A stretch of 63,997 bases of DNA, counting the filler, from Dimargaris cristalligena (taxonomy: Eukaryota): NCBI GenBank assembly GCA_003614675.1. It is 16 parts of 16 records of this genome, joined end to end, with 100 filler letters (N's around TTAATTAATTAA, not from the genome) between each part and the next. Parts side by side here need not be neighbours in the genome. Positions count along the whole stretch, not along the records: positions 4,080 to 8,051 come from ML003849.1; 15 more parts are not named here. One strand, 5' to 3'. This document shows, piece by piece, positions 4,080-63,991 of this stretch. Each line of letters begins with the position of its first letter. The first letter of the stretch is position 1. Both the position numbers and the translations under genes were made by a program. The notes beneath the pieces were generated by a model. The model was not told the DNA's origin, did not search any database, and saw nothing but the letters and a program-made list of their open reading frames with translations.

Positions 4080-4328
4080 AAGGAATGGCTGATACTTGTT
4101 AAAAGAGTACAGCAAGGGAATAAATGTAATACTCAGAAAAATAATCCAATCAACAAGAAATATATAAACGTTGTATGACAATAACAACTATAAAAAGGGA
4201 AAACTTAGGCTAACAGTGCCAATTCCTTGACTAATCACCTAAATATGGATGGTGGTTTCAATTTAAAAGGGTAAAAATAAATAGGGCAATGCCCAATACT
4301 ACTATAGCCATTTGGCTATATCACAACA
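4080..4328 (-). mobile_element. LTR-like element A, truncated by the contig edge; first unit of a tandem stack
   Basis: Ends in ...TATCACAACA (reverse complement TGTTGTGATA, like the start of element C), followed directly by AAAG. Confidence 0.55.
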
Positions 4329-4332
4329 AAAG

Positions 4333-4841
4333 TATTGTGCAACAGTGGGAAAATACTAAAAATGAAAGTTTAAATAGTAATAAACGTCTGGTAAAAATTA
4401 GCAAAAGAATTAGTTATCTCAAAGGCAAGAAACAGGGCGTCAAAAGTCTGGTTTATTAATGTTGGGTGATTACCCCTTATTTATATATTGGGAAATAAAT
4501 CAAGGGTCTAGGTTATTCAGGGGCAATGGAAAGTAGTAGCTGGTCTTGATGCCATTATTGGAATAACCACCGGTGGTCCTGGGTCACTTGATGTTGTTGG
4601 CTGGGAACGTTGGGGACATCAGTGGTGTTGCTGGTTTTGATTGAGTTCCGAATGAGTTTGTTCTAATAAACTCAGTGGCTTGGCTACTGGGGAGGCCATG
4701 GGAACATTTGGTACTGGCGGGTTGGGGATTCTTGCAGGACAACTGGGGAAATCACCAGACCGGTCCTGAGGACATCCTGGTGACCTGGGCCTGGAAATAG
4801 GTGCCGCCGAAGTTTGTGGTTCTTGGGGAGGTGGCACAACA
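4333..4841 (-). mobile_element. Solo LTR, family B (509 bp)
   Basis: Termini T(A)TTGTGC...GCACAACA; TATAAATA and AATAAA on the minus strand; AAAG on both sides; homologous to 5353-5859 and 12287-12771. Confidence 0.8.
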
Positions 4842-4845
4842 AAAG

Positions 4846-5348
4846 TGTTGTGATAGGTACTGAACACCCTTAAGCTTTGGTGATGTCACCAATGATGTAC
4901 CTTATAATAATTAATCAAATTATCACATTTTTACTATATTTAGTTTAGTTTATCAGTATCAATACTATATCATATCTATATTTCGTTTATCACATTATAT
5001 ATCAGACTCATATCCATATATCTCTTTATATATCATTTATGCCATCTATTTTTCTTTTATCATAAGTATACAATAGAAGAACCTGCATAGATATAATAAT
5101 CCATTATTTCTACCGCACAATATTTCTAGGGTATAAATACCCCTTCAAATTGCAACTTGAATAAAACATCTTGATTTTGTACTTATTTACTTAGTATAGA
5201 ATTGTATTGACTTATAGTCTACAGTTCTCTGCCTATTTCAGACTATTGATTATTATTTACTAGTGTCTAGGTATTTTTCACTACTCTATAGCCATTGGGA
5301 CTTTTTTATTTATTTACTTCATCAAGTTTTTCCCATTGCTGCACAACA
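4846..5348 (+). mobile_element. Solo LTR, family C (503 bp)
   Basis: Termini TGTTGTGA...GCACAACA; TATAAATA at ~5132 and AATAAA at ~5160 on the plus strand; AAAG on both sides; internal sequence unlike family B. Confidence 0.75.
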
Positions 5349-5352
5349 AAAG

Positions 5353-5859
5353 TATTGTACAACAGCGGGAAAATTCTAAAAATGAAAGTTTAAACAGTAA
5401 TAAACGTCTGGTAAAAATGAGCAAAAGAATTGGTTATCTTAAAGGCAAGAAACAGGGTGTCAAAAGTCTGCTTTATTAAAGGTGGGTGATTACCCCTTAT
5501 TTATGTCAGGAAATAAATCAAGGGGTTAGAGTATTCAGTGGCGGCAGAAAGCAGTAGTTGGTCTTAAAACCATTGTTGGGATAACCACCGGTGGTCCTGG
5601 GTTACTTGATGTTGTTGGCTGGGAATGTTGGGGATGTCAGTGGCATTGCTGGTTTTGATAGAGTTCCGAATGAGTTTGTTCTAATAAACTCAGTGGCTTA
5701 GCTGCTGGGGAGGTCATGGGAACATTCAGTACTTGAGGGTTGGGGATTCTTGCAGGACAACTGGGGAAATCACCGGACTGGTCCTGAGGATGTCCTGGTG
5801 ACCTGGGCCTGGGAATAGGTGCCATCAAAGTTTATGGTTCTTGGGGAGGCAGCATAACA
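5353..5859 (-). mobile_element. Solo LTR, family B, second copy (507 bp)
   Basis: Aligns end to end with 4333-4841; termini TATTGTAC...GCATAACA; AAAG on both sides. Confidence 0.8.
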
Positions 5860-7199
5860 AAAGAATTAAGAAATACAATAAGATAAATAATCTAATTATG
5901 GCTACAGGTGGCTACCATAGTGAAGCTAAATAATACTTCTGTAGAAATAATATACAAACCACTCCTGCCTTAGCCAATAGTTGCATCTACTTGAATGATG
6001 GTATTATGGGCATTGATACAGAGCTAGGGACTTATAAGTGACAGGAACCCACAAAGGAATGTTGTATTGGTTTGCTATCCCAAAACCATCTCACAGTCCA
6101 CACAGGCAGGCTTCTTTGAAGTATCATAGCAGTATGTAGCTTGTCCAAGACTTATCGCCAGGGGGTTAAAGGCGGACACATAATATATGGGGCCTAGGAT
6201 GCAGGTACAAAACAGGTGTTGGTACAAAGGGATGTACTGGGACCAACTATGTATATATAAGCCAAGATGTATCGGACAGTACCTCAGGGTAGTATTTATA
6301 TGTGGGGATGCTGCCATAGAGGTTCTAAGTATTGAATTGGCGATACTGGAAGGTAGGGATTATTATCAACAAGACTGCAACTGGGCCCGATGGAATTTTA
6401 GTTCTGGTGAAAGGCAGCGGAGAGGACTGTAGAGTGTTGGATAGGGAGGTTAACAAATTATTCGTATGGTGACAGATATCGCCAAAGGGAATAGGCTATC
6501 ATAAACACAGTTAATTAAGTGGCAATTAAGGCCGCGAATCTGGTCACCATCGTGCAGATAATCCTGCATCACAAGACAAACTGTTGAAGGGGTCTCGACA
6601 CGAATTGTTTTTGGTTAGTAATCGATGATAATTATGAATTCAGCGGCAGCTAATCTTGTTAAGTAGGGCATACATGACCCTTCAAAAATATATCTGCCGT
6701 ACACCATATTGCCTAGATTCAAAATGTGTTTATCTACGACTTCCGGTGGGTGTTAACGGACTCTAAATCCCGGGATAATCGACTCCATGAACAATATGGT
6801 TACATATCTACTGGTTATAAATGCTTTCGGATGGGGAGTGCCAATCCTAGGCCTGCGGTGGGTAGGTTATTATGACATACAATAAAATTCATCACACAGA
6901 GATTATAATATATGTTTAATTTAATAGGGGGAGTACGCCAGTCCACAGCATCCGGGACCTTACAAGTACTCCGATTTAAAAGAATCCCAGAGGTTAGATG
7001 TGTGTAAGTAAATAAAATAATATCATAAAACTAGTAAAAAGAACATCATAAGTAGGCGAATAATTAAAATAATAATTAAAAAATAGCCAGGCGCCGTATT
7101 AAGGGTGAATTGGATATCGATCCAATTCCAAATTATGGGGAATGGCGCCAGGAGAGGAAGCTGAGAAACCAAGTCGAATCAAGAATGCCTAATCAGCAG

Positions 7200-7973
7200 C
7201 TATTCGTCGATAGAGCAATCCTGGATGGTAATGTCCACCTTCTCTTCAGTCACTAGTTTGTTGAGGCTCTTGTAGTTTGCTTCGGTTACAACGTACCAGT
7301 CGATTTGATTATTGACAAGGCCCCAGCCTTCATCGTCCACGCGTACACAACCGTTATGGGTCTTACCGTTGGGCAACTTGACCCCTTTGAGCTGGTCCAC
7401 CATCAAAGTAGTTCCGTAACTGATGTTTTTCGCTGCCACACTATAGTATGGTACCAGGGTATTTCCCTTAGTTCCTATTGGACCGTCGGTTTCCATGAAA
7501 CACATGTAGTTTTCGCAGTCGCAGCCGCCCAAGTTGATGGTTTTGCCGTTGCTAAGCGTGGCAGTACCCTCCATTACGGCGGCGTCGGCAAATGCCTCCG
7601 ACACGGACGCCAGTTTCTTGCCGCTGCACGTACCTAGAATAACATCGCCCGAGTCGGCCTCGGTCTGAACTTCACCCCAGTAGAAAGTGAGCTTGACGGA
7701 CTTGGACTCGCCACTGGAGTCGCGCGTCGACTCTTTATTCGTCAATTCTTCGTTCTTCAACTCTTCGGATGTCAACACCTTAGTACCAGGGTCCGAATTG
7801 AAGACGTGACTACGACGCATGGCGGGGTGAGTGGTGTGGCGATCCCGGCCATCCGCGGGGACGTGCTCCCCGGCGGGAAGGGCCTCGGCGACGGGCGAAA
7901 GAGATAGCCACATGGCGGCTGCCACCAGTGCGTAAGCACTCAGTAGGGACACGAGGCGAAAAGAGCGAGGCAT
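7200..7973 (-). CDS. Secreted 3D-domain (MltA-like double-psi beta-barrel) protein, 257 aa
   Basis: Signal peptide MPRSFRLVSLLSAYALVAAAMWLSLSPVAEA. C-terminal VKLTFYW...YYSVAA..ISYGT..KLPNGKTHNGCVRVDDEGWG..NQIDWYV matches the 3D-domain pattern. No introns. Confidence 0.75.
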   Translation of the reverse strand: MPRSFRLVSLLSAYALVAAAMWLSLSPVAEALPAGEHVPADGRDRHTTHPAMRRSHVFNSDPGTKVLTSEELKNEELTNKESTRDSSGESKSVKLTFYWGEVQTEADSGDVILGTCSGKKLASVSEAFADAAVMEGTATLSNGKTINLGGCDCENYMCFMETDGPIGTKGNTLVPYYSVAAKNISYGTTLMVDQLKGVKLPNGKTHNGCVRVDDEGWGLVNNQIDWYVVTEANYKSLNKLVTEEKVDITIQDCSIDE

Positions 7974-8151
7974 TTTGAATAATGCGTTTGGGTTCTTTTG
8001 TTGAATTGGGGGGGGGGGGACATGGGTATAGTAAGCATAGGTCAGGTTCAANNNNNNNNNNNNNNNNNNNNNNNNNNNNNNNNNNNNNNNNNNNNTTAAT
8101 TAATTAANNNNNNNNNNNNNNNNNNNNNNNNNNNNNNNNNNNNNNNNNNNN

Positions 8152-11886: not shown

Positions 11887-12115
11887 GGGAGTAGTTCAGC
11901 GAGGCTGTATAACGAAAGATCCATTTGGATGAAATTCGGCCCAGCTATATATGGGTTTGCATTATACGTGTATGGGAAAATATATGGGAAATGTATTTTT
12001 AACTAGTAATATTGGCCGAATCCAATGGATTTTTTGTTATACAGCTTGGATGAACTTCTCCCATTTGATGAGGCAAATACTACTGGTTGAAAATAAACAT
12101 CCCACCGATTTTCCC
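11887..12115. mobile_element. MITE nested inside a MITE of the same family (inner copy 11927-12062)
   Basis: The outer copy matches the reverse complement of 40359-40488 but is split at ccATTTg. The inner 136-bp copy is flanked by ATTT at 11923-11926 and 12063-12066. Confidence 0.8.
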
Positions 12116-12286
12116 NNNNNNNNNNNNNNNNNNNNNNNNNNNNNNNNNNNNNNNNNNNNTTAATTAATTAANNNNNNNNNNNNNNNNNNNNNNNNNNNNN
12201 NNNNNNNNNNNNNNNACCTACTGTCCTCTAGCTGCTTTCTTCCCTTACTTCCAGTTTTATTTCCTTTACAACCTTAGTATTCCAAT

Positions 12287-12771
12287 ACCACAAACTTCAG
12301 CAGTACCTATTCCCAGGCCCAGGTTACCAGGATATCCTCAGGACCAGTCTGGTAATTCCCTCAGTTATCCTGCAGGAATCCCCAACCCTCAAGTACTGAA
12401 TGTCCCCATGACTTCCCCAGCAGCTAAGCCACTAAGTTTATTAGAACAAACTTATTCAGAACTCAATCAAAACCAGTAATGCCACCAATGTCCACAAAGT
12501 TCCTAGCCAATAACATCAAGTGGCCCAGGACTACCAGTGGTTATTCCAACAATAGTATCAAGACTAACTACTGCTTTCCATCACCCCTGAATACCCTAAC
12601 CCCTTGATTTATTTCCTGATATAAATAAGGGATAATTACCCATCTTTAATAAAGCAGACTTGGATACCCTGTTTCTTGCCTTTGAGACAACCAATTCTTT
12701 TACTAATTTTTACCAGATGTTTATTACTGTTTAAACTTTTATTTCAACTATTCCCCCACCATTGCACAACA
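12287..12771 (+). mobile_element. LTR family B copy, more mutated
   Basis: Reverse-complement homolog of 4333-4841; ends ATTGCACAACA; CpGs lost. Confidence 0.8.
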
Positions 12772-13803
12772 ACAGGAAAGAGATGCCATATTTTGCCATA
12801 TGTCAGAATATGCTCTGTATCCCATTAGATCTGTGAAAATAAGCTCTGATCAGCCAATTTAGTACTGAGGTGGGTGACTACTTGGGAATAGTTGGTGCTA
12901 CAACTTTTTTAATTTTTATTATCATCAAGTACATATTATATACATATATTTTTTGAATATATTTTCTATGTAATATGTTTCAAGCATCATTTTTATTAAT
13001 TTTCTTTTATTATCATATCTTAGTATAGTCCCCTAATTGGGATCCTGCAACAATATTTGGTTTATAATTGGTAAGATATTTTTTAAATTTGGTAACAGTA
13101 ATCATGTTAACTGAATCAGATTTATAGGGGGATAATATATGTATTTCCATAGTTGCACTGCTCAAAACTAAATTCAGTGATGCTGAACTTATTTTAAATA
13201 TTGGGCTATTTAACCAAGAGCACCCTTAAGACTTCTAGAGAATTCAGGTGGTAGCATTTAAGTTTGGTAATCTGGCAGTTGGCCATATCATTGGGACATG
13301 TCCCCTAATCCAGTAAGCATAGCTAACAAGGGCAAACTGTACACACCTGAATCAGATTCAGAGTTACAGAGGACATAAAGGAAATGCCTCCTTTGCTTTT
13401 GTTGAATGATACCAGTCAAAAGTATTGATGCACATATTCCGGCTTTTGCCCACAGCCACTATATATCACGTCTTATTAACTCTATCACAAGTTTCAGGGA
13501 GGTACAGCAGAGTATTCTCATCATCGGGGAAGCACACATATAAGGACACGCGGATTCGAATACTCCATTCATTAAGCGAATGGCTACTGAGTGATAGATA
13601 GTTTATATAAATTACAAAAAATAGATCGAAAAAAAAAGTATATAGAAAAAAAAGCTAGCTAAACTATTGATAAATGGCGTATCGGATGTGGAAAACCGGA
13701 TAAACTATTGTACCTCAGGATAATCGTAAAAAAAAATAATTCATATCATATCATTATATCCTGATCCAGCAAGACCGGTAACCCTCTCTCTCTCTCTCTT
13801 TCT

Positions 13804-16179
13804 CTATTGCTTGCACTGTAGACGGGGCAGAGGGTGCTTCTTCTTTGCCCAGTTACGGACGGGGCCCAAGACGACAAAGTATTCCCAAATGGCGACGGCC
13901 ACCATATTGGCGATGGAATAGCCCCACAGTTTGAAACGCATGTCCTGGGGCAATACGTTATGGCCCAGTTCACTGTTGTACGCCTCCACCTCAAACGAAG
14001 GGCGCTTGTAACCCAGTTGGACCAAGACTTCGGGCGTACCGCAGTTGAGTCGGAATGTGCAGCCGAGCCAGTTGGGGTCGGCTAGTTCGACGTAAGATAC
14101 CACCCCAATGAGCGCAGCCCAAATGGCCACCAGGGTGTAGTTACGCCACCACGATTGGCGGAACAGGTGTCCGAAATTGAACACTGCGGCGGCGTTGATG
14201 AATTGGAACAGGACCATCAGGGACAGCACTTCGCCCTCGTAGTTGTCGGCCAATAGCCACCATTTGGATAAATCGACTAGGCGCGAGTCGAACTCGTGGC
14301 ACTTGAACCAGGGTTGCGAGAATAAGAAGAAGAACCCGCCAATGATGAACATCCAGTTAATGAACACCTGACCAATGGCCGAGGCCAGCGTTTGGGGGCC
14401 CAACAGGCGCGCAGTGGGTCTGGACGCGCACAGGCGCCGGGCCGGACCGGATAGGGTCACGGCCACCGCCAGACCCACCGTGATAAATGCGTCAATGAGA
14501 ATCCAGAGGGGCTGCGAAATCTGGGACGAGAAGTAGAATCCAATCAGTTTGAGACAGGCCATGATTTGGCCATACAGAATCAGATACTTGTAGTCGGCCA
14601 GGGAAGTGGCAATCGCGGCGCGGCCCTGTCGGAGCAGTTCCACGCAGGACTGGATGGAGCGGACACTGGTGCTAAACGGGGAAACAATGGAGGCTTCGGC
14701 TTCGCTAAGGGCAATACCAACGTGGGCGGCGCGGAGGGCGCCGCAGTCATTACCACCATCACCGCACATGGCCGTGATACCACGCTCCATGTGAAGTTGG
14801 ACACAGTCGACCTTATCCTGGGGGGTCATACGGGCGAAAATGCGAATATCCAGCAGGTATTGGCGGATGGTTTCATTGTCAACCAACACCCGGAACGCTT
14901 TACCAGTGACGGCCAGTTCCACCCCACGGTCGGGAGTCTGGGATGTTAAGGCGTCATTGACCTGTACCGGCTGCTTGGTGTCCACGTCGATCCAAGTCAG
15001 ATTCCCCTGTTTGTCTACATCGGCGAGCAGGACCCGGTCGTTGGCGGGGGTCATACCACAGGCTTGGGCAATGTACACCCCGGTCAGAGCAGTGTCACCG
15101 GTAATCATTACGGTACGAGTGTTACCCTCCTTAAGTTCGGTAATGGCATCCGTAGTGTCCGACTTGAGGTTATTCTTAAATAGGATTAATCCAATGAAGT
15201 CGGCATTCTGTTCCAGTTGCTCGCGGCTGGTCCGGCGCACCTCCTCAAGATCCACCACTCCCAGGTCGCGATGGGCCATACTCAGCACGTAGCAACCCTC
15301 CTGGGCCAATTGGTTGGTGACCTGGTCGTAATCGGCGGGCAGAGACTCCTGCCGAACCAGGTCCTTGACCTTCTCGAACGAGCCCTTGATGAACACGTGG
15401 ACATGGCCGGTAGCGCTATCCAGCACCGCGACGGACATGGACATGCGAGCATGAATGAACTCGAACCGCTTGACGACATGGATGGCGGGGTCCTGGGGCA
15501 CATAGGAAGTGGGTCGCAGAGAATCGAGGTACTCGGGGCTCTCGGGCGAACAAAGATCCCACTGAGTCGACCGGAACATTTCAATATCCACGGGGTTACC
15601 AATCAACTGGCCTTCCACGTCCGTAACGGTATGCGCAGAGGCGATACCCATTCGCATAAGAGGCGCAGTATGGGCGAACTCGGGTTTCCGGGTGTCGAAG
15701 GAGGGTTTGTTGGTGATTGTGTTTAAGGCAGAAGAGGGTTCGGAGGGATTGGCTAAAGCCGCCACAGGCTGGGATCCGTAGAATTCAAGACCCTCCTTAG
15801 TCAGGGTGCCGGTTTTATCGAAGCAAAAGATTTGCACTTTACCGGCAATGACAATGCGGGGCAGGTCCACGCAGAAAATCTTCTTCTTGCGCAACCGGCC
15901 GGCGGCCATGGACTGGCCTACTACGAGGGCCGCGGGCAGGAGGGGACTCAGAATCTGCGAGATGCAGAACATACCGTAGAACCAGGAGGCCACGAAGTCT
16001 TCGTTCATCATCCACAGGGCCATAGCGAATAGGAATAGGCCGTAAATGAGCAACATGATGATGACGACCTTGAGTTGCTCGTTGAAAATAAACGAGATGG
16101 GGTTGGGGAACAGAATGTTGCGCACCAATTGGCCCTTGTCAGTAGCGGTACCCGTGCGGAAGACCAGAGCGCCCATTCG
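13804..16179 (-). CDS. P5-type (ATP13A/Ypk9-like) P-type ATPase, 5'-partial
   Basis: SPLLPAAL, CFDKTGTLT phosphorylation motif, FEF..ARMSMSV, KGSFE, MITGD, FARMTPQDK, MCGDGGNDCGAL, EASIVSPF, and C-terminal transmembrane helices. Confidence 0.93.
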   Translation of the reverse strand, partial: RMGALVFRTGTATDKGQLVRNILFPNPISFIFNEQLKVVIIMLLIYGLFLFAMALWMMNEDFVASWFYGMFCISQILSPLLPAALVVGQSMAAGRLRKKKIFCVDLPRIVIAGKVQIFCFDKTGTLTKEGLEFYGSQPVAALANPSEPSSALNTITNKPSFDTRKPEFAHTAPLMRMGIASAHTVTDVEGQLIGNPVDIEMFRSTQWDLCSPESPEYLDSLRPTSYVPQDPAIHVVKRFEFIHARMSMSVAVLDSATGHVHVFIKGSFEKVKDLVRQESLPADYDQVTNQLAQEGCYVLSMAHRDLGVVDLEEVRRTSREQLEQNADFIGLILFKNNLKSDTTDAITELKEGNTRTVMITGDTALTGVYIAQACGMTPANDRVLLADVDKQGNLTWIDVDTKQPVQVNDALTSQTPDRGVELAVTGKAFRVLVDNETIRQYLLDIRIFARMTPQDKVDCVQLHMERGITAMCGDGGNDCGALRAAHVGIALSEAEASIVSPFSTSVRSIQSCVELLRQGRAAIATSLADYKYLILYGQIMACLKLIGFYFSSQISQPLWILIDAFITVGLAVAVTLSGPARRLCASRPTARLLGPQTLASAIGQVFINWMFIIGGFFFLFSQPWFKCHEFDSRLVDLSKWWLLADNYEGEVLSLMVLFQFINAAAVFNFGHLFRQSWWRNYTLVAIWAALIGVVSYVELADPNWLGCTFRLNCGTPEVLVQLGYKRPSFEVEAYNSELGHNVLPQDMRFKLWGYSIANMVAVAIWEYFVVLGPVRNWAKKKHPLPRLQCKQ

Positions 16180-20599: not shown

Positions 20600-21028
20600 A
20601 CTAATCACTTAAGTACTGATCTAACCCTCTCTTCTAGTTACTATCAGAGTCTTCCAGATACTAATGGCTATCTGGTTGGCCTATTTTACCTATACCTTAG
20701 TCTTAGTAGTATCCTTTCCCCAGGACCTCCCTCTGGAGTTATCCCTATATATATATAACTAGGCCCCATTAGGTCCAGTTAGATTCCTTAGCTTATTCTT
20801 ACCCCCTAGTTTGCCCCAATAAACTCTATGTATGTTTACCCCCCTTGTACTACTAGTAAGTGTGCCCACTGTACATCCCTAACATTAACCTGCATTTACC
20901 CTTTATTGGTTAGTACTACACCCCCATCCTAATGCTAGTAGCAGCTTGGCTGAGCCTAAGCCCCACCTACCATTAGAAGCATACCCTTGGGACTCTTAAC
21001 AGACTAAGAGTGGTAAACCCAGGCAACA
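20600..21028 (+). mobile_element. Decayed family-D LTR
   Basis: Colinear with ~43030-43453 (CCCCAGGACCTCCC, TATATATAAC, AATAAACTCTAT, GACTAAGAGTGG..GGCAACA). The left boundary is approximate. Confidence 0.7.
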
Positions 21029-21215
21029 GTGGTAATTACATATTGCTTGTCAAAGTACAAATGTGCAGGTGTTGTTAGCATCTCAAATGAAAGGCTCATT
21101 TACAATGATGGCAGGAATAATCAGAGTCTCACATATTTTTAATTGCAGATTGGTGTATAAAAAGATGGATGAGTATTCCATATAGATGCTTGCTGTCAAT
21201 TTTCAACTGTTTTAT

Positions 21216-21878: not shown

Positions 21879-22150
21879 GAATGGACATTCCTGCTAGCCC
21901 CTTTAACCACTCCAGTAAGACAATTACAACCGCCCAATACGATAGCCTGTACATCAAAGCCAGTATTCACGAAGAAGCAGACTTGGGGGGTGGTAGCAAT
22001 AAAAATAGAACCAGTTAATATTCTGGGTGCAGCAATACACCGATAAACCAAATGGGTGAATAAGTCTAGTACAGGCTACTCTATAAACGGTGCTATTACT
22101 AGTAGCTTTCGAAATAAAGTGCGAAAGGTGTGTAATACTGTAGAAACAAT

Positions 22151-22289
22151 GTGAGAGGTTCATCAACCAAGCTGTTTAACGAAAAATCCATTGGATGAAG
22201 TGAATATTATTGGTTAAAAATAAATATCCCATATATTATCCCATACACGTATCATTTAAAAACTTATACAACTGGGCCGCATTTCACCC
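22151..22289. mobile_element. MITE copy
   Basis: Homologous to 11927-12062 and 25762-25897 in the opposite orientation; ends TTTCACCC|ATATG. Confidence 0.7.
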
Positions 22290-24385
22290 ATATGATAGCT
22301 TTGAAAAAATAGCATATAACGTGGTAGACATGTGCCCAGATATATAAATTGTACCCCGGAGGGCGTGGCGGGCTCGCAAAATGCAACATGCCGTCTTGCA
22401 CCTATTCTCGTGTTTTGATTGATAATATTCCTAAAGACTACTCACCAACAAATGGACATGTACTATATTGATCGAGCATGAGAGTTCTCAGCTAACAGCT
22501 ATAGGGGGTGGAATGAGACCGCCGTGATATCCTCAAAAGGTTACTCATGTAACATAGCTCCACCTTAAATGGACTTGAGTGGGGGTCTGTAGCTCCATTT
22601 TGGTTTCACAGCAGGGGTATTTGGAATTAAATTGGAAGGGACAGTGTGTGAACAACTTATACATGAGAAGGACAATGAGGCCGGCTAATCCGACTTACCC
22701 CTACCTTCCGCAGATACAATATATTTACATACTATTGACCCCCTGGTCCGTGGGTATATTATGTTTTTAGTTATGGTCGAGGCGGTCCTTCTTCAACCTG
22801 TAGCATTGCGACGCCTCCTGCATTTTACATACCCAGTACTACTCAAGTATGCGCAACGTGAAGCACTCCACCCAGTTGACCCTCGTGAGGGATATGGATA
22901 TTTTTAAACGGGTTTATGGATGTACTTCGTCATAAATGAAGTAATTTGGCTAAGCTATTTACATTATAGGGCAATGTTCTAGTAAATGTTAGAATGTCTA
23001 CGTCTAGAAAGATAATCTTTCAGAGATCACTCAATAAAGTGGTAAAATGTGCTTTATAGATTATGATCGGGATGGCCATCCAATATAAGGGATAGGTTAA
23101 CTAGTAGATGAATATGGGGTGCGATATTGTAACTGGAGAACAACTGTAGGAGTTGGCTCGGGTTTGTATAACTGTACAGCCTAAGAGTATGGGCGAAAAA
23201 CTCCCCAGAATTTGCCGGAACTGACTAGCTGTGAAAATAATTAAGAGTATATAGCCATTGTAGATATATAATCGATGGATAGGGAGGCCGGGAAGGCTGA
23301 AAGGTGGTAGCACCATTGGGGATTACATTACCATGTCCTATTGATGAAATTAAGCGGTACTACATCTTAATCCCTGATAATGGTCCGGATTTAATCCTGC
23401 TGATCATATAGCATGGCGGGCATTATGGCCAGAATAGTCAGAGGCAGTCATCCCAATACGGAGACGATGCGGTTATAGGAACCCACTACCCCCCCCCCCA
23501 ATAGATGGGCTCTATTGCCGCCCGCTAAAGCCTAACCGCAAGGCTATAGTATGTTTAAAGGGAGGCTGGATAGAGCTAAGTGAAACAACAGTTACTCACA
23601 ACGTATTAGCAAAGCAGCTTGCCCTAAGAAATGGAGATGGCGAATCCCCATTAAGAAAATGCAGCACATGGTGCGAAGATTAACGTAACCTACTCGTACT
23701 CCCCTAATCCTCTTTCACCCCATCCGAACGGGAAACATTAATGTGCTTATTGCAATACCAAAAAGAATACAATTGGGGTTTCCGAACAAGTCCCGTGTGT
23801 CAGTCACGGCTTTAGCAGTTCCGATTTAAGGATCAGTTCCGCTGGGAACTCTGACCAATATGTGTATACATTAATACATGTTACACACAGCTGTAGAGTA
23901 CTATTGTCAAAAATCTTACACATCGGAAACGGATATTATAATGGATACGGACTGCATGGCTACCTACAATTATCTCTTCAAGTATCCTCAATTTCCAGTG
24001 GCGCCCAAATCACACAACGCGTCGAAGAGTACTCTTATTGAGCACCCCAGTTTAGCTTCATGATAAAGTTTGAATCAGTCCCTCAACTAACTGAATGCTG
24101 GGGGAGCAGGGAGTGGTGGTCGGAAGTGACATCCCTACATGGTCTGACCCTTTCTCTCCTCCCACTTTCGCCCCGGCTAATATAAATAATCGCTGATCCT
24201 GGTGCTAAAAACGGTATCCACTTTAACTTAGTTCATTACCACCACTTACTAAACAGCCAAGCAGTCGGGTTTATATTTCGCTGCTNNNNNNNNNNNNNNN
24301 NNNNNNNNNNNNNNNNNNNNNNNNNNNNNTTAATTAATTAANNNNNNNNNNNNNNNNNNNNNNNNNNNNNNNNNNNNNNNNNNNN

Positions 24386-25761: not shown

Positions 25762-25897
25762 GGCAGAAGTTCATCTAGGCTGTATAAGGTTTTACTAAAT
25801 ACGTGTATGGGTGTATATATGTGAGAAAAGCTTTTAACCAGTAATATTGGCCTCATCCAATAGATTTATCATTATACAGCCTGAATGAACTTCTCCC
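25762..25897. mobile_element. MITE, best-preserved copy (136 bp, ~26-bp imperfect TIRs)
   Basis: GGCAGAAGTTCATCTAGGCTGTATAA ... TTATACAGCCTGAATGAACTTCTCCC, flanked by ATAT on both sides. Confidence 0.85.
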
Positions 25898-27518
25898 ATA
25901 TGACAAGTGCCCGTGAGGGTGGGGTTCTATTGAATACAAAGCAAGGTGCTAATAGGCTATAGCCTAGATAGAGTTTTGTCAATTTGCCAGGCATATGGCT
26001 CCCCCCCACCAAGCATATGCTACGACGGGGGTACTAGATGCTTAGGCATATGGTTACCATCATACTGTAATGACCCGCCCAGCCAATAAAATGGTTAGTG
26101 TAACAGCCAGCAGAATGGGAAGATGCACCCTCATTGGCTGTTGTCAAAACTAACAGCCCCCACCAACTTATCTCCCCATAGTTCTGTGTGGTTCCTTCCT
26201 ATATTATTACTATGTAATAAATCATTTATACTCTAACCCAGCTGACTCTTATTGGAATGCAGCACTAAATAACTGCTTGTTAATGGGATTCACTTGTAAA
26301 ATATATTTTTTAATTGCACTAGAATAACACTAAAGATTCTGCAATTACCTAAGGGCTATATTGGTAAATATACCCCAGGTTCAAAAATATCAGATTTGGT
26401 CTTATGTAATGTATAATGAAATATCAATCAATAGGCTTGTACCAGCTGTCAGTAGCATGGTAAAACTTTATAATGTGCATAAAAGAACCCGAGAGGACTA
26501 CTCAGGGCAGCTCTATTTAGACCCCTAAACTCTTATCGAAATTGGCGAGAATGGGTAATGCACTATAAAAAAATCAGTAGGGAGTAGTTCTTAAACAAAA
26601 TTATTATCTTTCTCGCCTTGAACAATTTATTTCTAACACTTGGCGCCAGTACTGAAGAGCCTATTCATATATTCGAATTGGCGATTGAACTTCTCTAATC
26701 CCCTCTTAATGTTATCACAATAAGCTAGTTATTTTAGGTTCATTGGCCTTAAAACTGCTTAATGAACCAGGTAATATGATATTTTCGTACAATGAATTAG
26801 AAAGGGGGGGTGTCTTACACCTGTGCCACTGGAAGTGTACAGCTAGGAAGTCCACATAATAATCCAAAATTACTTAAAATACTTTTATAATTGGTTTTGA
26901 CTGAGCATATCATCAACGAAACAACTTACTGGTCCCCCACGATTGTATCTTGCTCAGGAGATTAGATTATTTAATTAATGTCGTTCTTGTAGATTATCTG
27001 CTTACCAAAGCAACATAGGCGAGCCCCATGGTTCATATTTACCCTTCCAAATAACAGTTCGCCTCCAAATACTGGGGCATGGCTCTATATACCAGTCAAC
27101 CCAGGCATAAATTTGATTAACAGAAGCCGACCGCCTAGACCATAGGTGGCCCGAATAAGGCTATATAATTATTTAGTCAATTGTTCCCAGTCGCAGCCTA
27201 AAGTCTTTCAAGCTGACCAGAGGCCTATGAAATGACAGCTTCTTTCATTTGCCGAGTCGTATTTGCATGAGAAGCTCAATGCACCAAAAGGCCAATACCG
27301 ACGACACGAACTGTACCGTCGTGTAACATTAGCATTAAGTTTAACGACCACTGCATTAAGGCCATTCACCGGGTTCATCAACATGCCATTACTATCCTAA
27401 ATTGAATGAGAAGTCGAACACAGAGACGCCACTGTTTCTCCCTCAAAAAGCTCTGTATTCTTTTAACATCTAGATAAATTCACTAACTGCTGCATCTGTC
27501 CAACATGGTTGATAATGT

Positions 27519-27652
27519 GTGAGAGGTTCAACCCGACTGTAACGAAAATCACGTTGAGTGAGGCTAATTCTATTGGTTAAAACCGAACCTCCCATATCTT
27601 TTTACATACACTTATCATTTAAACCCTTAAACAGCTGGGCGGAATTTCACCC
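27519..27652. mobile_element. MITE copy, diverged
   Basis: Colinear with 22151-22289; flanks ATGT and ATAT. Confidence 0.65.
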
Positions 27653-28438
27653 ATATCATTCACATTATAGGAAATACCCGTAACACTTAGCCATTGTCAC
27701 CCCCACTAATATTTCCAAATCCCAGAATATATAGAGAAAGCTGTCCCGTTGCGAGGGATAAAACTCACCATGTGGTTGGGTGTCGCTGCACCCCCAATTT
27801 CTATCGACAGATACTTTCGTCCAACTTATGTACCTTGTACGTGTGTCAGGTCTTGGGATTCGACCACAGCCGAAAGGTTCGTTGAAATATAAAAAAAAAA
27901 TGGCTTTAATATCATATGGGAGCTATACCGCAATTGAACCATATCGCCGTGTCAACAAGGCAGACCTGAACTAATGGGCTTACCGAGGAGCATCGCATAA
28001 CAACGCCTATGTCATAGACGGAAGCGATATTTATTTCACCCACCTGCAATGGTTACACGCGGTGATGCTACTACGGGATCAAACCGGTATGGTTTCCCCT
28101 TACTATTGAGTGAGGGCAGGATTCATATATATGTCACCGCCAATAAGCATCACATAACATGGCTTGCCGATAATATCTACAACGGCAGCTTAAAACCTAA
28201 AGAGTTACACAGTTTGAAAGGCAGCATCATCCCCACCCATGTCCAGGGCGGCCCAATGACTTATCAATGATGGGGCCTAGGTGCAACTGAGAAGAGCAAC
28301 CGAACGCTTGGCCTCAACTTAAACCCTAGACAATAGTGNNNNNNNNNNNNNNNNNNNNNNNNNNNNNNNNNNNNNNNNNNNNTTAATTAATTAANNNNNN
28401 NNNNNNNNNNNNNNNNNNNNNNNNNNNNNNNNNNNNNN

Positions 28439-40197: not shown

Positions 40198-40358
40198 GTA
40201 GGTCAATAATAATAATAATAATAGGGCCAAAAATAGGGTGGTAGTATTTTTTTTGGGGGGGGGGGGAGGCCGTACGGGGAAAAGATAGTGTGTGTGAGTT
40301 GTCCCTTCCCACTACTTGCTAGGCCTCTTGGTCCTTGAGCGGACTTTCCCGTCCATAT

Positions 40359-40488
40359 GGGTAAAGTTCAGCTTGGTTGTATAAGGGTTTAACCGATATG
40401 TGTATGGGAAAATTGGTGGGATGTTTATTTTCAACCAGTAGTACTTGCCTCATCAAATGGATTTTTCGTTATACAGCCTTGTTGAACT
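40359..40488. mobile_element. MITE copy, truncated by the contig end
   Basis: cATAT|GGGTAAAGTTC...TTATACAGCCTTGTTGAACT. Confidence 0.75.
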
Positions 40489-42886: not shown

Positions 42887-43453
42887 TATTGCTCCGCCTA
42901 ATCTGTCCTAATCCAACTGATATGATCACTGTCATATCAAGCCATATAGCGCCATATTGTACCCCCGGCTCTAATAAGGCAGGGCATCACTGATATCTCC
43001 CCACCAGCCGGACCTCCTGGGTTCGCACTAATCACTCATAGGTGATCTTAGCGTCTTCTGATTCCCATGGAAGCCCTGCTCAACCAAGGACCAGCTGGTC
43101 CACCTTATTGTTATCCATTTTGTAGTTCCCCCCCCCAGGACCTCCCCTTTGGAGTCACCCTCAGCATATATATAACCAGGCCCCGTTTGGGACCAGTTAG
43201 AACTTCAGCTTATTCTTACCCCCCAGTTTCCCCCAATAAACTCTATATACGCTCAACCCCTCTCACTGCTGACTAGTAAGTGTGCATTTGTGCACATCCC
43301 CCACATATGTAGTGACACTTGCTTTATTTAGTTAGTACTGTCCCACCACCCCTAACGCTAGTAGCCTGCTTGGCCGTGTCCAACGCCCTGCCTATCGTTA
43401 GAAGCCTACCCCCGAGACTCTTGACGGACTAAGAGTGGTTAACTTGGGCGACA
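42887..43453 (+). mobile_element. Full-length family-D LTR (567 bp)
   Basis: Starts TATTGCTCC (decayed TGTCGCCCC) and ends GGGCGACA; TATATATAA and AATAAA inside; homologs at 8152, ~20600, 60748 and 63857. Confidence 0.75.
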
Positions 43454-44631
43454 GTTAGTGAGCAGGTTAATCCCATTGGAGTGGTTATGGATCCGGTCAC
43501 AAACTGCCCAATATTATAGACAGGTTTCATATCAAGTGGTTGAGTTTACGTCGCCATATGTATAACATACACTAGTGGTCATTTTAATAATAGTCTAAAT
43601 CAAGCCACTGCTAAGTCATGTCGGGGAATTTGAGAGAACTGGTTCGTTAGATTATCAGAATATATGATACTGGGGTACAATGTCCCCACTATCAACACCA
43701 ACGTGCATTTTCATTAAAACATTCCTCACATTTATTATAATGAATCCATGCACCTTTTTGCCAACCATTTAAGTTGGTTGGGTGTGCGTACGTTTAGGAA
43801 AACTGAAAATGGACCGGGTGGCGGTTGGGTACCTGGTTGGTCTCTGGGTATTGGAGCTTGGGACTCGTTATATCTGGTCGGGAGAAACTCCGGAACATGT
43901 GACATTTCCTGCACGTTAGCTGAGGGTATAAGGGTAGATAATAGATAGGGGAATGCGATGCACTTCTAACCACCCGATATTAATAGCATTATATTAAAGA
44001 CATGGGCCTGGAGGCTCAGGAGGTTAGGAACCCATTTTATTTCATTCTCTCCTTAGGGGCATTCTCGGATATGACCGCCATCCGACCGTTTTTATTAGAT
44101 TGGCCTGAATAAGGTCATGGCAAATTTGAATGCATAAATGATCACCTGGGGATAAGGGTAGGGAGGAGGCGGGGTGAACTAGGAGGGACGAGGTGGGCAT
44201 GGACGTACCTGTTGTTCCTTGGGGATCAATTAAGAAATGCACCTAGTCTCCTGGACTTTAGGCCATTTCAACCATGCAGCCAGGTACTATCAGGTCGGAT
44301 CCTCGGGAAGGTGTATTGTTAGTGTGCAAAGGCAATGGAGTTGACTAGGCGCATTGTATATCTGTGGGTGTTTGAAGGGGTAGAGGGAGGAGGAGGGAGT
44401 CGTACATCTCAGAGAAAACACGGCTGTACCATAATCATTGGGCCGTAGCTCTAAAAATGAGACGGTCGAAATATTCGATACTCTCGGGTCTTGGTCAATG
44501 GCGGCAACCAACTCAGGCTGAGCGGATCCTNNNNNNNNNNNNNNNNNNNNNNNNNNNNNNNNNNNNNNNNNNNNTTAATTAATTAANNNNNNNNNNNNNN
44601 NNNNNNNNNNNNNNNNNNNNNNNNNNNNNNA

Positions 44632-60747: not shown

Positions 60748-60887
60748 GAACTCCGGGGGGCCTGGCCGGTTAAGGGCTATCAATGATGTTCGGCCTGGTT
60801 AGGGCCGGGGGGTATACTATGGCACTATACGGCCTGATATGACGACAGTCATATCGGTTGGATTAGGACGGATTAGGAGGGGCGACA
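60748..60887 (-). mobile_element. 5' end of a young, CpG-intact family-D LTR (mirrored at 63857-63991)
   Basis: Ends GGAGGGGCGACA and retains CpGs that are mutated in the 42887 copy. Confidence 0.75.
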
Positions 60888-63800: not shown

Positions 63801-63991
63801 CATGAAAATCTTTTGAGTACCCAAGTTATTACTTTTTTTATATCTATATTTCTGGTTGTCGCCCCTCCTAATCCGTCCTAATCCAACCGATATGACTGTC
63901 GTCATATCAGGCCGTATAGTGCCATAGTATACCCCCCCGGCCCTAACCAGGCCGAACATCATTGATAGCCCTTAACCGGCCAGGCCCCCCG
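60754..63991. repeat. ~1.1-kb near-perfect inverted repeat (arms 60754-61848 and 62896-63991, 1047-bp spacer)
   Basis: The arms are reverse complements. The only difference I noticed is G6 versus C7 in one homopolymer. Confidence 0.95.

What the first reader, a model, noticed from the sequence alone, without database searches (positions are those of the whole stretch)
4080..5863. Stack of at least four solo LTRs from three families, each separated by the same 4-bp AAAG
Seen: the junction CA(C/T)AACA-AAAG occurs at 4329, 4842, 5349 and 5860, the first three followed by T(G/A)TTGT. It delimits units of 509, 503 and 507 bp plus one truncated unit. Units B and D are homologous and on the minus strand, C is a different family on the plus strand, and A is a third type. 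The spacer is always AAAG whatever the orientation. Inference: repeated base-exact integration into one target site regenerated the same TSD each time, and each insertion then collapsed to a solo LTR. The result is an ordered record of invasions and implies a shared site-specific targeting mechanism (compare Ty3 targeting of Pol III start sites). Simple tandem duplication cannot explain mixed families and orientations.
Basis: partly seen in the sequence, partly recalled or inferred. Interest (0 to 1): 0.76.

Follow-up and report, generated by a model that had tools for sequence, protein, structure and literature searches.

The report
Stack of solo LTRs sharing one spacer
At the edge of a short fungal contig, four retrotransposon end-repeats (solo LTRs) from three families sit end to end, each separated by the same four bases, which is best read as repeated insertion into exactly the same spot.

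Summary
Units A (4080-4328, cut by a contig end), B (4333-4841), C (4846-5348) and D (5353-5859) are each followed by AAAG. The 11-mer CAYAACAAAAG occurs 4 times here and nowhere else in the window (0.07 expected). The units behave as LTRs: TGTTGTG...CACAACA ends, a TATAAATA-28 nt-AATAAA core, and summed depth in public runs far above the unique flank. B and D are one family on the minus strand, C is another on the plus strand, and A is a third.

Exact run contigs at single-copy depth bridge junctions 1, 3 and 4. No listed piece bridges junction 2. Tandem duplication, 2-LTR-circle junctions and a B/D LTR pair with an internal region do not fit.

The best reading is at least three successive integrations into one 4-bp target, each regenerating AAAG, followed by collapse to solo LTRs. 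What guides them is open. The only other B/D copy in the window ends 16 nt upstream of a 5S rRNA gene, which fits Ty3/Tj1-like Pol III targeting. No Pol III gene is detectable right of the stack, and the left side is missing.

One caution: AAAG also ends a polypurine tract before another C-family copy. This is a new member of a known kind and moderately interesting.

The parts
4080..4328 (.). Unit A: right-hand 249 bp of an LTR of a third family, cut on the left by the contig end. Orientation is undecided.
   Evidence: It ends in CACAACA. It has no significant similarity to B, C or D. Summed depth in the runs is far above the unique flank, and other copies diverge exactly at 4328 (X5, 3 contigs, tables 2 and 7). 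The contig starts at 4080.
4329..4332 (.). Spacer 1, AAAG.
   Evidence: X3 record 17 covers 4302-4442 with no differences at near single-copy depth.
4333..4841 (-). Unit B: 509-bp solo LTR of the B/D family.
   Evidence: On the minus strand it has TGTTGTG...CACAATA ends and TATAAATA (4478-4485) followed 28 nt later by AATAAA (4452-4457). It is 88.6% identical to D.
4842..4845 (.). Spacer 2, AAAG, between the two U3 starts of B and C.
   Evidence: No listed run contig bridges it. In X2 a single-copy-depth contig joins the end of A through AAAG to the start of C (table 5).
4846..5348 (+). Unit C: 503-bp solo LTR of a second family.
   Evidence: It has TGTTGTG...CACAACA ends, TATAAATA at 5132-5139 and AATAAA at 5160-5165, 28 nt apart start to start. 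There is no BLAST match to B or D apart from the shared U5 end. Other copies are preceded by a polypurine-like run (table 7).
5349..5352 (.). Spacer 3, AAAG, between the two facing U5 ends of C and D.
   Evidence: X2 record 15 covers 5259-5408 with no differences at depth 295, against 329 for the unique flank. The facing 17-mers are 12 of 17 identical and 17 of 17 identical-or-transition.
5353..5859 (-). Unit D: 507-bp solo LTR of the B/D family.
5860..5863 (.). Spacer 4, AAAG, next to the unique flank.
   Evidence: Contigs of all 4 runs laid cross it: X1 record 7, X3 record 24, X2 record 16 and X5 record 32. X5 comes from a second study and shows 7 differences.
5864..7199 (.). Single-copy right flank with no recognisable Pol III gene. 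It lies downstream of a 3D-domain-like gene at 7203-8051 (-).
   Evidence: Depth is flat at the single-copy level (table 2). There is no Rfam hit better than E = 4.3, no tRNA and no B-box-like motif. describes the gene.
12285..12771 (+). Unit E: third copy of the B/D family in another contig. Its first 22 nt or so do not align with B or D.
12772..12775 (.). The 4 nt after unit E: ACAG, not CTTT or AAAG.
12788..12906 (+). 5S rRNA gene, decayed, 39% GC, with several broken pairs. It starts 16 nt after the end of unit E and is in the same orientation.
   Evidence: Rfam RF00001 scores 66.9 bits against a gathering score of 38, over model positions 1-120.

Best explanation
The region is a pile of solo LTRs from at least three related LTR-retrotransposon families. 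The families share the 7-bp ends TGTTGTG/CACAACA. C and B/D also share about 17 nt of the U5 end.

An element first integrated at a 4-bp target, AAAG, and duplicated it. Later elements, in either orientation, made their staggered cut across one of those AAAG copies. Each event therefore produced one more AAAG. Every full element later collapsed to a solo LTR by LTR-LTR recombination.

Hitting the same 4 bp at least three times needs a locally fixed cue. My preferred cue is a Pol III transcription complex, as for Ty3, Tj1, Tca8 or DGLT-A, because another B/D-family LTR ends 16 nt upstream of a 5S rRNA gene. If so, the anchoring gene would lie left of the contig end, or it has decayed beyond recognition.

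What is shown: the structure, the LTR nature of the units, their orientation, their multi-copy status, and read support for three of the four junctions. What is inferred: the order of events, the integrase mechanism and the cue. I give about 0.35 to the Pol III cue within the 0.6 for the whole statement.
For: - Exact spacing and spacer: 4 of 4 junctions carry CAYAACAAAAG, against 0.07 expected.
- B, C and D are each flanked by AAAG on both sides, as a 4-bp target-site duplication would be.
- LTR features: TG...CA ends with a 7-bp inverted repeat, and TATAAATA followed 28 nt later by AATAAA in B, C and E when read in the assigned orientation. A polypurine-like run lies directly before another C-family copy (table 7).
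- Summed depth over the LTRs is 1,964-201,331, against 154-578 over the flank (table 2). The tool warns that this is not a copy number.
- AAAG is not part of the A or B/D termini. E is followed by ACAG. Other A-family copies run on into other sequence at 4328 or 4331 (table 7).
- Junctions 1, 3 and 4 are covered by exact contigs at near single-copy depth: 424 against 578, 295 against 329, and the flank contigs themselves. Junction 4 is also present in a second study's strain (table 8).
- A and C are not similar (z = 2.8 and 0.9), so a duplicated C-B pair is excluded.
- E lies 16 nt upstream of a 5S rRNA gene. That is within the 1-33 bp range listed for Pol III-targeting Ty3/gypsy elements (PMC5911963 Table 1, passages read; PMC4600332, passages read).
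Against: - No Pol III gene is found in the 1.4 kb right of the stack: Rfam at E up to 10, ARAGORN, and no B-box-like motif.
- The 5S link rests on a single locus. The 5' end of E is not intact, so its own target-site duplication cannot be read.
- Junction 2 is not bridged by any listed contig. In X2 a contig at single-copy depth joins the end of A through AAAG to the start of C, skipping B (table 5).
- AAAG is also the last 4 nt of the polypurine-like run before another C-family LTR (X1, X2 and X5, table 7). For a pure target-site duplication this is roughly a 1-in-256 coincidence.
- B and D carry equal private change, 27 and 25 of 487 columns, so nothing records an order of arrival.
- The runs may include the data the assembly was built from, so they are not fully independent.
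- No internal gag-pol sequence is available. None of the 18 ORFs scanned has a retroelement domain.
Confidence: 0.6

Rival explanations
1. LTR-end-guided integration. The integrases of these families capture resident LTR termini as targets and cut the 4 bp directly beside them. Any first insertion then seeds a self-extending stack that inherits one spacer, and no Pol III gene or other external anchor is needed. In this stack the spacer could have been inherited from the polypurine-tract/U3 boundary of a C-family element.
For: - All junctions are LTR end to LTR end, and the ends are shared across families.
- Other LTR-to-LTR abutments between these families appear in the runs. The end of A is joined to the start of C through GAT (X3, depth 4,734) and through 9 nt (X1). 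The end of C is joined to the start of C (X3). The end of A is joined to the start of C through AAAG (X2). All are, tables 5 and 5c.
- AAAG equals the end of the polypurine-like run before another C-family LTR (table 7).
- No anchor gene is seen right of the stack.
Against: - E abuts non-LTR DNA next to a 5S gene on its U5 side.
- The other abutments have spacers of 1-9 nt and matched sides of only 22-31 nt, so they may come from variant copies.
- AAAG right of C and right of D still needs the founding target-site duplication to have been AAAG.
- I found no paper describing such a mechanism. The five searches were for other questions and returned nothing on it. What I know of LTR integrases does not include it, and that is recalled.
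Confidence: 0.12
2. Assembly artefact. The order A-B-C-D, or at least the B|C joint, is a wrong path through high-copy LTRs in a fragmented short-read assembly. The real loci would be shorter, for example A-AAAG-C-AAAG-D.
For: - The contig is 3,972 bp, starts inside a repeat, and comes from an assembly of roughly 4-kb pieces.
- The LTRs are high-copy (table 2).
- Junction 2 has no listed bridging contig.
- An A-AAAG-C contig exists in X2 at single-copy depth, 325.8 against 329 (table 5).
Against: - Exact, B-specific contigs exist at near single-copy depth in X3: 4302-4442 and 4528-4672, both with no differences.
- Junctions 1, 3 and 4 are bridged (table 8).
- Only the longest pieces were listed (2,487 were not shown), so the gap at junction 2 proves nothing.
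- Even the shorter form keeps several LTRs separated by AAAG.
Confidence: 0.1
3. AAAG is not a target-site duplication. It is carried in with the elements, for example as a polypurine-tract remnant on aberrant cDNA ends, or as part of the LTR. The constant spacer would then say nothing about target choice.
For: Other C-family copies read ...GGGAGG-AAAG-TGTTGTG in X1, X2 and X5 (table 7).
Against: - At junction 1 neither partner owns AAAG. Other A-family copies continue differently after 4328 (table 7). The B/D U5 end in E is followed by ACAG.
- For B and D, read in their own orientation, the spacer is CTTT on both sides, which is not purine-rich.
- Even if each element brought 4 nt, the elements would still have to land base-exactly beside each other.
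Confidence: 0.08
4. One composite or duplicated unit. Either B and D are the two LTRs of a single small element with C as its inside, or the array is a tandem duplication of a C-B pair.
For: - B and D are direct repeats of 88.6% identity, 511 bp apart, flanked by AAAG on both outer sides.
- They carry equal private change, 27 and 25, as two LTRs of one element or two duplicates would.
Against: - The supposed inside is exactly AAAG + a complete C LTR + AAAG, with its own TG...CA ends and promoter core. There is no primer-binding site or polypurine tract next to B or D.
- Removing C would leave B-AAAG-D, which again needs same-site use.
- A is not similar to C, so a duplicated pair fails.
- Tandem Repeats Finder reports nothing here, though it only looks for periods up to 500.
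Confidence: 0.05

Closest known systems
Ty3 of Saccharomyces cerevisiae (Ty3/gypsy, sigma LTRs)
   Same: It shows position-specific integration next to Pol III genes in either orientation, and leaves many solo LTRs. The review table gives 1-4 bp upstream of the tRNA transcription start (PMC5911963, passages read). As I recall, without checking, Ty3 LTR ends share the first six bases with the ends seen here.
   Different: The spacer here implies a 4-bp duplication. The 5-bp duplication of Ty3 is recalled and came from no call. The one dispersed copy seen here lies 12-16 nt upstream of the mature 5S start, not at the start site. No pol or integrase sequence is available, so superfamily membership is untested. 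The host looks like an early-diverging fungus rather than a yeast (weak evidence).
Tj1 of Schizosaccharomyces japonicus
   Same: [quoted passage not shown] E has the same orientation as its 5S gene, as all Tj1 inserts at Pol III genes did.
   Different: Tj1 makes a 5-bp duplication and has TGTCA...TGACA ends (PMC10085805, passages read). Its 5S inserts lay from 3 bp upstream to 41 bp downstream of the mature 5' end. The stack here holds both orientations.
DGLT-A (Dictyostelium) and beta/Tca8 (Candida albicans)
   Same: Both are Ty3/gypsy elements that insert 13-33 bp (DGLT-A) or 6-30 bp (Tca8) upstream of the mature tRNA coding sequence. DGLT-A does so in either orientation (PMC5911963 Table 1 and text). 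That distance range includes the 12-16 nt seen at the 5S gene here.
   Different: Those targets are tRNA genes. I saw no report there of multi-family stacks with one repeated duplication.
Cassandra, Ajax and Helenus (TRIMs carrying a 5S- or tRNA-derived sequence inside the LTR)
   Same: They associate an LTR with a 5S-like sequence (PMC10886601, abstract and outline read).
   Different: Here the 5S lies 16 nt outside the LTR, and B and D carry none. This is adjacency, not capture.

Membership tests
Solo LTR of an LTR retrotransposon | TG...CA termini forming a short inverted repeat. | tested here: met
   B, C and E end in TGTTGTG...CACAACA or transition variants. D has TGTTATG...TACAATA. Only the right end of A is visible.
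Solo LTR of an LTR retrotransposon | Flanked by a short direct target-site duplication of 4-6 bp. | tested here: met
   AAAG lies on both sides of B, C and D. Because all are the same 4-mer, these are not independent tests of the length. The 5' flank of E is unreadable.
Solo LTR of an LTR retrotransposon | U3 promoter and polyadenylation signal in one orientation. | tested here: met
   TATAAATA is followed by AATAAA 28 nt later (start to start) in B, C and E. D keeps AATAAA but has lost the exact TATA match.
Solo LTR of an LTR retrotransposon | Dispersed and multi-copy. | tested here: met
   A third B/D copy lies in another contig. Summed contig depth over A-D is about 6 to more than 100 times that of the flank. 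Many variant contigs carry other flanks.
Solo LTR of an LTR retrotransposon | Full-length relatives with a primer-binding site, gag-pol and a polypurine tract. | tested here: inconclusive
   A 12-nt all-purine run directly precedes another C-family LTR in X1, X2 and X5 (table 7). No internal sequence is in the window: 0 of 18 ORFs have retroelement domains. No genome is held.
Pol III-targeting Ty3/gypsy elements (Ty3, Tj1, Tca8, DGLT-A) | Insertions at a fixed short distance upstream of tRNA or 5S genes. | tested here: inconclusive
   This holds for the only dispersed copy with a readable flank, E, which lies 16 nt before the 5S gene. It does not hold on the visible side of the stack, and the other side is missing.
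Pol III-targeting Ty3/gypsy elements (Ty3, Tj1, Tca8, DGLT-A) | Ty3/gypsy pol domain order, and an integrase that contacts TFIIIB or Pol III. | not testable with these tools
   No internal element sequence could be reached.
Pol III-targeting Ty3/gypsy elements (Ty3, Tj1, Tca8, DGLT-A) | A 5-bp target-site duplication, as in Tj1 and its fission-yeast relatives. | tested here: not met
   The spacer is 4 bp if the LTRs end in TG/CA. The 5 bp for Tj1 and the Tosmo elements comes.
Tandem duplication or satellite | Successive units homologous in register (A like C, B like D). | tested here: not met
   B and D are 88.6% identical, but A against C gives z = 2.8 and 0.9 against shuffles. Tandem Repeats Finder finds nothing here (its longest period is 500).
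2-LTR circle junction or tandem LTR-LTR | U5 end joined to U3 start of the same element in direct orientation. | tested here: not met
   Junction 2 is U3 start to U3 start. Junction 3 is U5 end to U5 end, between different families.
TRIM with a 5S-derived LTR (Cassandra, Ajax) | A 5S-like sequence inside the LTR. | tested here: not met
   The only Rfam hit in the window, at 12788-12906, lies outside unit E. There is none in A-D.

The most novel reading that the evidence does not exclude
Resident LTR termini are themselves the targeting signal. Integrases of these related families dock on an existing LTR end and integrate exactly across the adjacent 4 bp. LTR stacks would then seed and extend themselves, each inheriting one spacer. 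Here that spacer would come from the polypurine-tract/U3 boundary of a C-family element. This would be a self-homing mode of LTR-retrotransposon integration. I found no paper describing it, although none of my five searches was aimed at it, and I recall none.
Probability: 0.12. Interest if true: 0.8.

Novelty: new member of a known kind. Interest (0 to 1): 0.47.

Why it matters
If the reading holds, the stack is a natural record of base-exact, repeated integration by several related retrotransposon families. It would point to position-specific, possibly Pol III-guided, targeting in a fungal lineage that is absent from the list of known cases in PMC5911963 Table 1. It would also supply a simple genome-wide signature to search for: LTR-N4-LTR with a constant spacer.

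There is a practical side. B-C-D mimics a 1.5-kb LTR element, with 88.6% LTR identity and a perfect AAAG duplication. I infer that LTR-finding programs could miscall it as a small non-autonomous element. I did not test this.

Tried and rejected
- **Whole genome.** None is held, so no genome-wide count of junctions was possible.
- **Metagenome scans.** A 25-nt B/D-family pattern gave 0 matches. A 19-nt U5-end pattern gave 120 loci, mostly gut and other bacterial contigs. blastn of the stack and of contig 4 against all 120 gave only one 22-nt chance match. No relative was recovered.
- **Anchor gene right of the stack.**
  - Rfam at gathering score gave only the 5S gene at 12788.
  - Rfam at E up to 10 on 5700-7300 gave 3 hits with E of 4.3 or more and no Pol III RNA.
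  - ARAGORN found 0 tRNAs.
  - My own ARAGORN runs with introns found 0 at default settings and only implausible calls at relaxed thresholds. One of those was on the minus strand at 5975-6090, with a 35-nt intron at a non-canonical place.
  - No B-box-like motif was found.
- **Polarity of decay.** Private changes are B 27, D 25 and E 45 of 487 columns, so there is no signal.
- **RIP as the source of AT-richness.** CpG is depleted (observed/expected 0.16-0.40 in A-D and 0 in E). TpA is not enriched in B/D (0.72-0.77). Differences run both ways. This looks more like CpG decay than RIP.
- **Transition-tolerant alignment of A with B, C and D.** Nothing beyond the ends.
- **Retroelement proteins in the window.** 0 of 18 ORFs (8 of the 18 had some other Pfam family).
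- **Junction 2 in the runs.** No listed piece covers it, and 2,487 pieces were not shown. I treat this as untested, not as absent.
- **Papers.** Five searches found background on Pol III targeting. They found no paper describing LTR stacks with one repeated duplication. This is a limited search, and supplements were not read.
Full report
**Context.** The window is not one stretch of chromosome. It is 16 contigs of about 3.9-4.0 kb, joined by N44-TTAATTAATTAA-N44 linkers. The finding sits at the very left end of contig 2 (4080-8051).

The genes in the window are fungal in character: PIP5K, a P-type ATPase, NRPS modules, EPL1 and spermidine synthase. 8 of the 18 ORFs scanned had a Pfam family, and none was a retroelement domain. 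The gene next to the stack (7203-8051, minus strand) has no Pfam match. Its nearest Atlas clusters are 3D-domain-like proteins, commonest in Mucoromycota and Zoopagomycota. That is a weak hint of an early-diverging fungus. No whole genome is held.

Reading the sequence and scripting the coordinates gives:

| Feature | Coordinates | Length |
|---|---|---|
| A | 4080-4328 | 249 bp, cut by the contig end |
| AAAG | 4329-4332 | |
| B | 4333-4841 | 509 bp |
| AAAG | 4842-4845 | |
| C | 4846-5348 | 503 bp |
| AAAG | 5349-5352 | |
| D | 5353-5859 | 507 bp |
| AAAG | 5860-5863 | |

- The 11-mer CAYAACAAAAG occurs 4 times in the window on both strands, all here. The expectation is 0.07, and 0 of 100 shuffles reach 4.
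- B and D are 88.6% identical, with 44 transitions, 12 transversions and 2 gap columns. In that script the units were taken one base to the right of the true ones.
- A third copy, E, lies at 12285-12771 in the opposite orientation in contig 4.
- A and C have no other copy in the window.

**The units are LTRs.**
- B, C and E end in TGTTGTG...CACAACA or transition variants.
- Read on the minus strand for B and the plus strand for C and E, each has TATAAATA followed exactly 28 nt later by AATAAA. D keeps the AATAAA. This common core fixes the orientations: B and D minus, C plus.
- The U5 ends of C and of B/D are related. At junction 3 the two facing 17-mers are 12 of 17 identical and 17 of 17 identical-or-transition. 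Elsewhere C does not align with B or D.
- A shares only the 7-bp end, plus 10 nt with the reverse complement of the start of C. Otherwise it shows no significant similarity (z = 2.8 and 0.9 against C). Its orientation stays open.
- All units are CpG-poor: observed/expected is 0.16-0.40, against 0.61 in the flank and 1.04 in the neighbouring gene. These are old copies.

**Public runs.** Five runs from two studies hold the stretch, and four were laid as contigs.
- *Depth.* Summed depth over 4080-5864 is 1,964-201,331. Over the right flank it is 154-578. The LTRs are therefore multi-copy and the flank is unique. The tool warns that this figure is not a copy number.
- *Junction 1.* X3 record 17 covers 4302-4442 with no differences at depth 424, against 578 for the flank. 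It holds 27 nt of A plus AAAG on the left, so it meets the tool's 31-letter rule only if the spacer is counted with A.
- *Junction 3.* X2 record 15 covers 5259-5408 with no differences at depth 295, against 329.
- *Junction 4.* Contigs of all four runs cross it. These include X5 from the second study, with 7 differences and 3 gaps over 5795-6600.
- *Junction 2.* No listed piece bridges it, but 2,487 pieces were not shown, so it is untested rather than refuted.
- *Independence.* The runs may include the assembly's own data.

**Three further rows matter.**
1. In X2 a contig at single-copy depth (325.8) joins the last 29 nt of A through AAAG directly to the start of C. This is either a B-less form of this locus or another locus.
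2. Other LTR-to-LTR joints between these families exist with other spacers: GAT at depth 4,734 in X3, 9 nt in X1, and a joint from the end of C to the start of C in X3.
3. In X1, X2 and X5, contigs that match from 4842 onward are preceded by ...CCCTAAGGGAGG. In another C-family copy the LTR is therefore preceded by a 12-nt all-purine run ending in AAAG. This looks like the polypurine tract of a full-length element.

**A link to Pol III.** Rfam finds one family in the window, a 5S rRNA gene at 12788-12906 on the plus strand. It scores 66.9 bits against a gathering score of 38 over the full model. It is 39% GC and has several broken pairs. Unit E ends at 12771, 16 nt upstream, in the same orientation, and is followed by ACAG. 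I expect that a random insertion would very rarely land there. It is still a single locus, and the 5' end of E does not align with B or D over the first 22 nt or so, so no duplication can be read.

Right of the stack I found no Pol III gene:
- no tRNA;
- no Rfam hit better than E = 4.3 in 5700-7300;
- no B-box-like motif.

The left side is beyond the contig end.

**Mechanism.** Three further hits on the same 4 bp cannot be chance, so either the structure is an artefact or integration was guided.
- Tandem duplication of a C-B pair fails because A is unlike C.
- A 2-LTR-circle junction fails because junction 2 is U3 to U3 and junction 3 is U5 to U5, between different families.
- Reading B and D as the LTRs of one element fails. 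The inside is exactly AAAG, a complete C LTR and AAAG. Without C it would be B-AAAG-D, which again needs same-site use.
- AAAG is not intrinsic at junction 1. Other A-family copies run into other sequence after 4328 or 4331 (table 7), and the B/D U5 end in E is followed by ACAG.

I therefore favour successive integrations across one AAAG, each regenerating it, followed by collapse to solo LTRs (0.6).

The cue is not established. A Pol III complex is my first choice because of E. An LTR-end-guided mode is the main rival (0.12), and it would also absorb the other LTR-LTR joints. The match between the spacer and the end of the C-family polypurine run is unexplained under the favoured model, at about 1 in 256 by chance. 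The test for polar decay gave nothing: B 27, D 25 and E 45 private changes in 487 columns.

**Comparison with known systems.** The review table in PMC5911963 (passages read) lists these insertion positions:

| Element | Position |
|---|---|
| Ty3 | 1-4 bp upstream of the tRNA start site |
| Tj1 | 1-10 bp upstream |
| Tca8 | 6-30 bp upstream of the mature tRNA coding sequence |
| DGLT-A | 13-33 bp upstream of the mature tRNA coding sequence |
| Yarrowia elements | about 5 bp upstream |

- Tj1 also inserts at 5S genes and always in the gene's orientation (PMC4600332, abstract and passages read).
- Tj1 and the Tosmo elements make 5-bp duplications. The spacer here implies 4 bp.
- Elements that carry 5S inside the LTR, such as Cassandra and Ajax (PMC10886601, abstract and outline read), do not fit, because the 5S gene lies outside unit E.
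- Membership of Ty3/gypsy cannot be tested without pol.

**Novelty.** Five paper searches found no description of multi-family LTR stacks with one repeated duplication. The searches were limited, and no supplements were read. I rate this as a new member of a known kind, position-specific LTR retrotransposons, seen through an unusually clean footprint. Interest is moderate.

**Limits.** The assembly is fragmented and there is no genome-wide view. No internal element sequence was available. One junction is unverified. The Pol III link rests on one locus.

Noticed in passing
window 12788-12906 (+): A dispersed 5S rRNA gene of 39% GC with several non-canonical pairs in helices I and III. It is probably a decaying copy. 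It lies between a B/D-family LTR and the 3' end of a P-type ATPase gene (13807-16179, minus strand).
   Followed up: partly
window 11920-12068, 22148-22296, 25779-25903, 27518-27659, 40352-40488: A family of repeats of about 140 bp with terminal inverted repeats, MITE-like and 72-81% alike. Several copies sit at contig ends.
   Followed up: partly
window 60754-61848 and 62896-63991: The last contig carries a 1,096-bp inverted duplication at 99.9% identity. This could be a real foldback or an assembly artefact. The window also ends inside this contig.
   Followed up: no
window 46391-46470 and 46789-46868: A perfect 80-bp inverted repeat lies inside the NRPS region, straddling the break between the two NRPS reading frames.
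   Followed up: no
window 7203-8051 (-): A reading frame with no Pfam match, running off the contig end. Its nearest Atlas clusters are 3D-domain-like proteins, eukaryotic in Mucoromycota and Zoopagomycota, next to bacterial 3D/MltA clusters.
   Followed up: partly
window 4300-4328 joined to 4842 onward, in run X2: A contig at single-copy depth joins the end of A through AAAG to the start of C, without B (table 5). It may be a strain or haplotype lacking B, or a second stack.
   Followed up: no
window 20703-21030 and 43119-43455: Another dispersed repeat of about 330 bp at 75% identity, shared between two contigs. It is unclassified.
   Followed up: no
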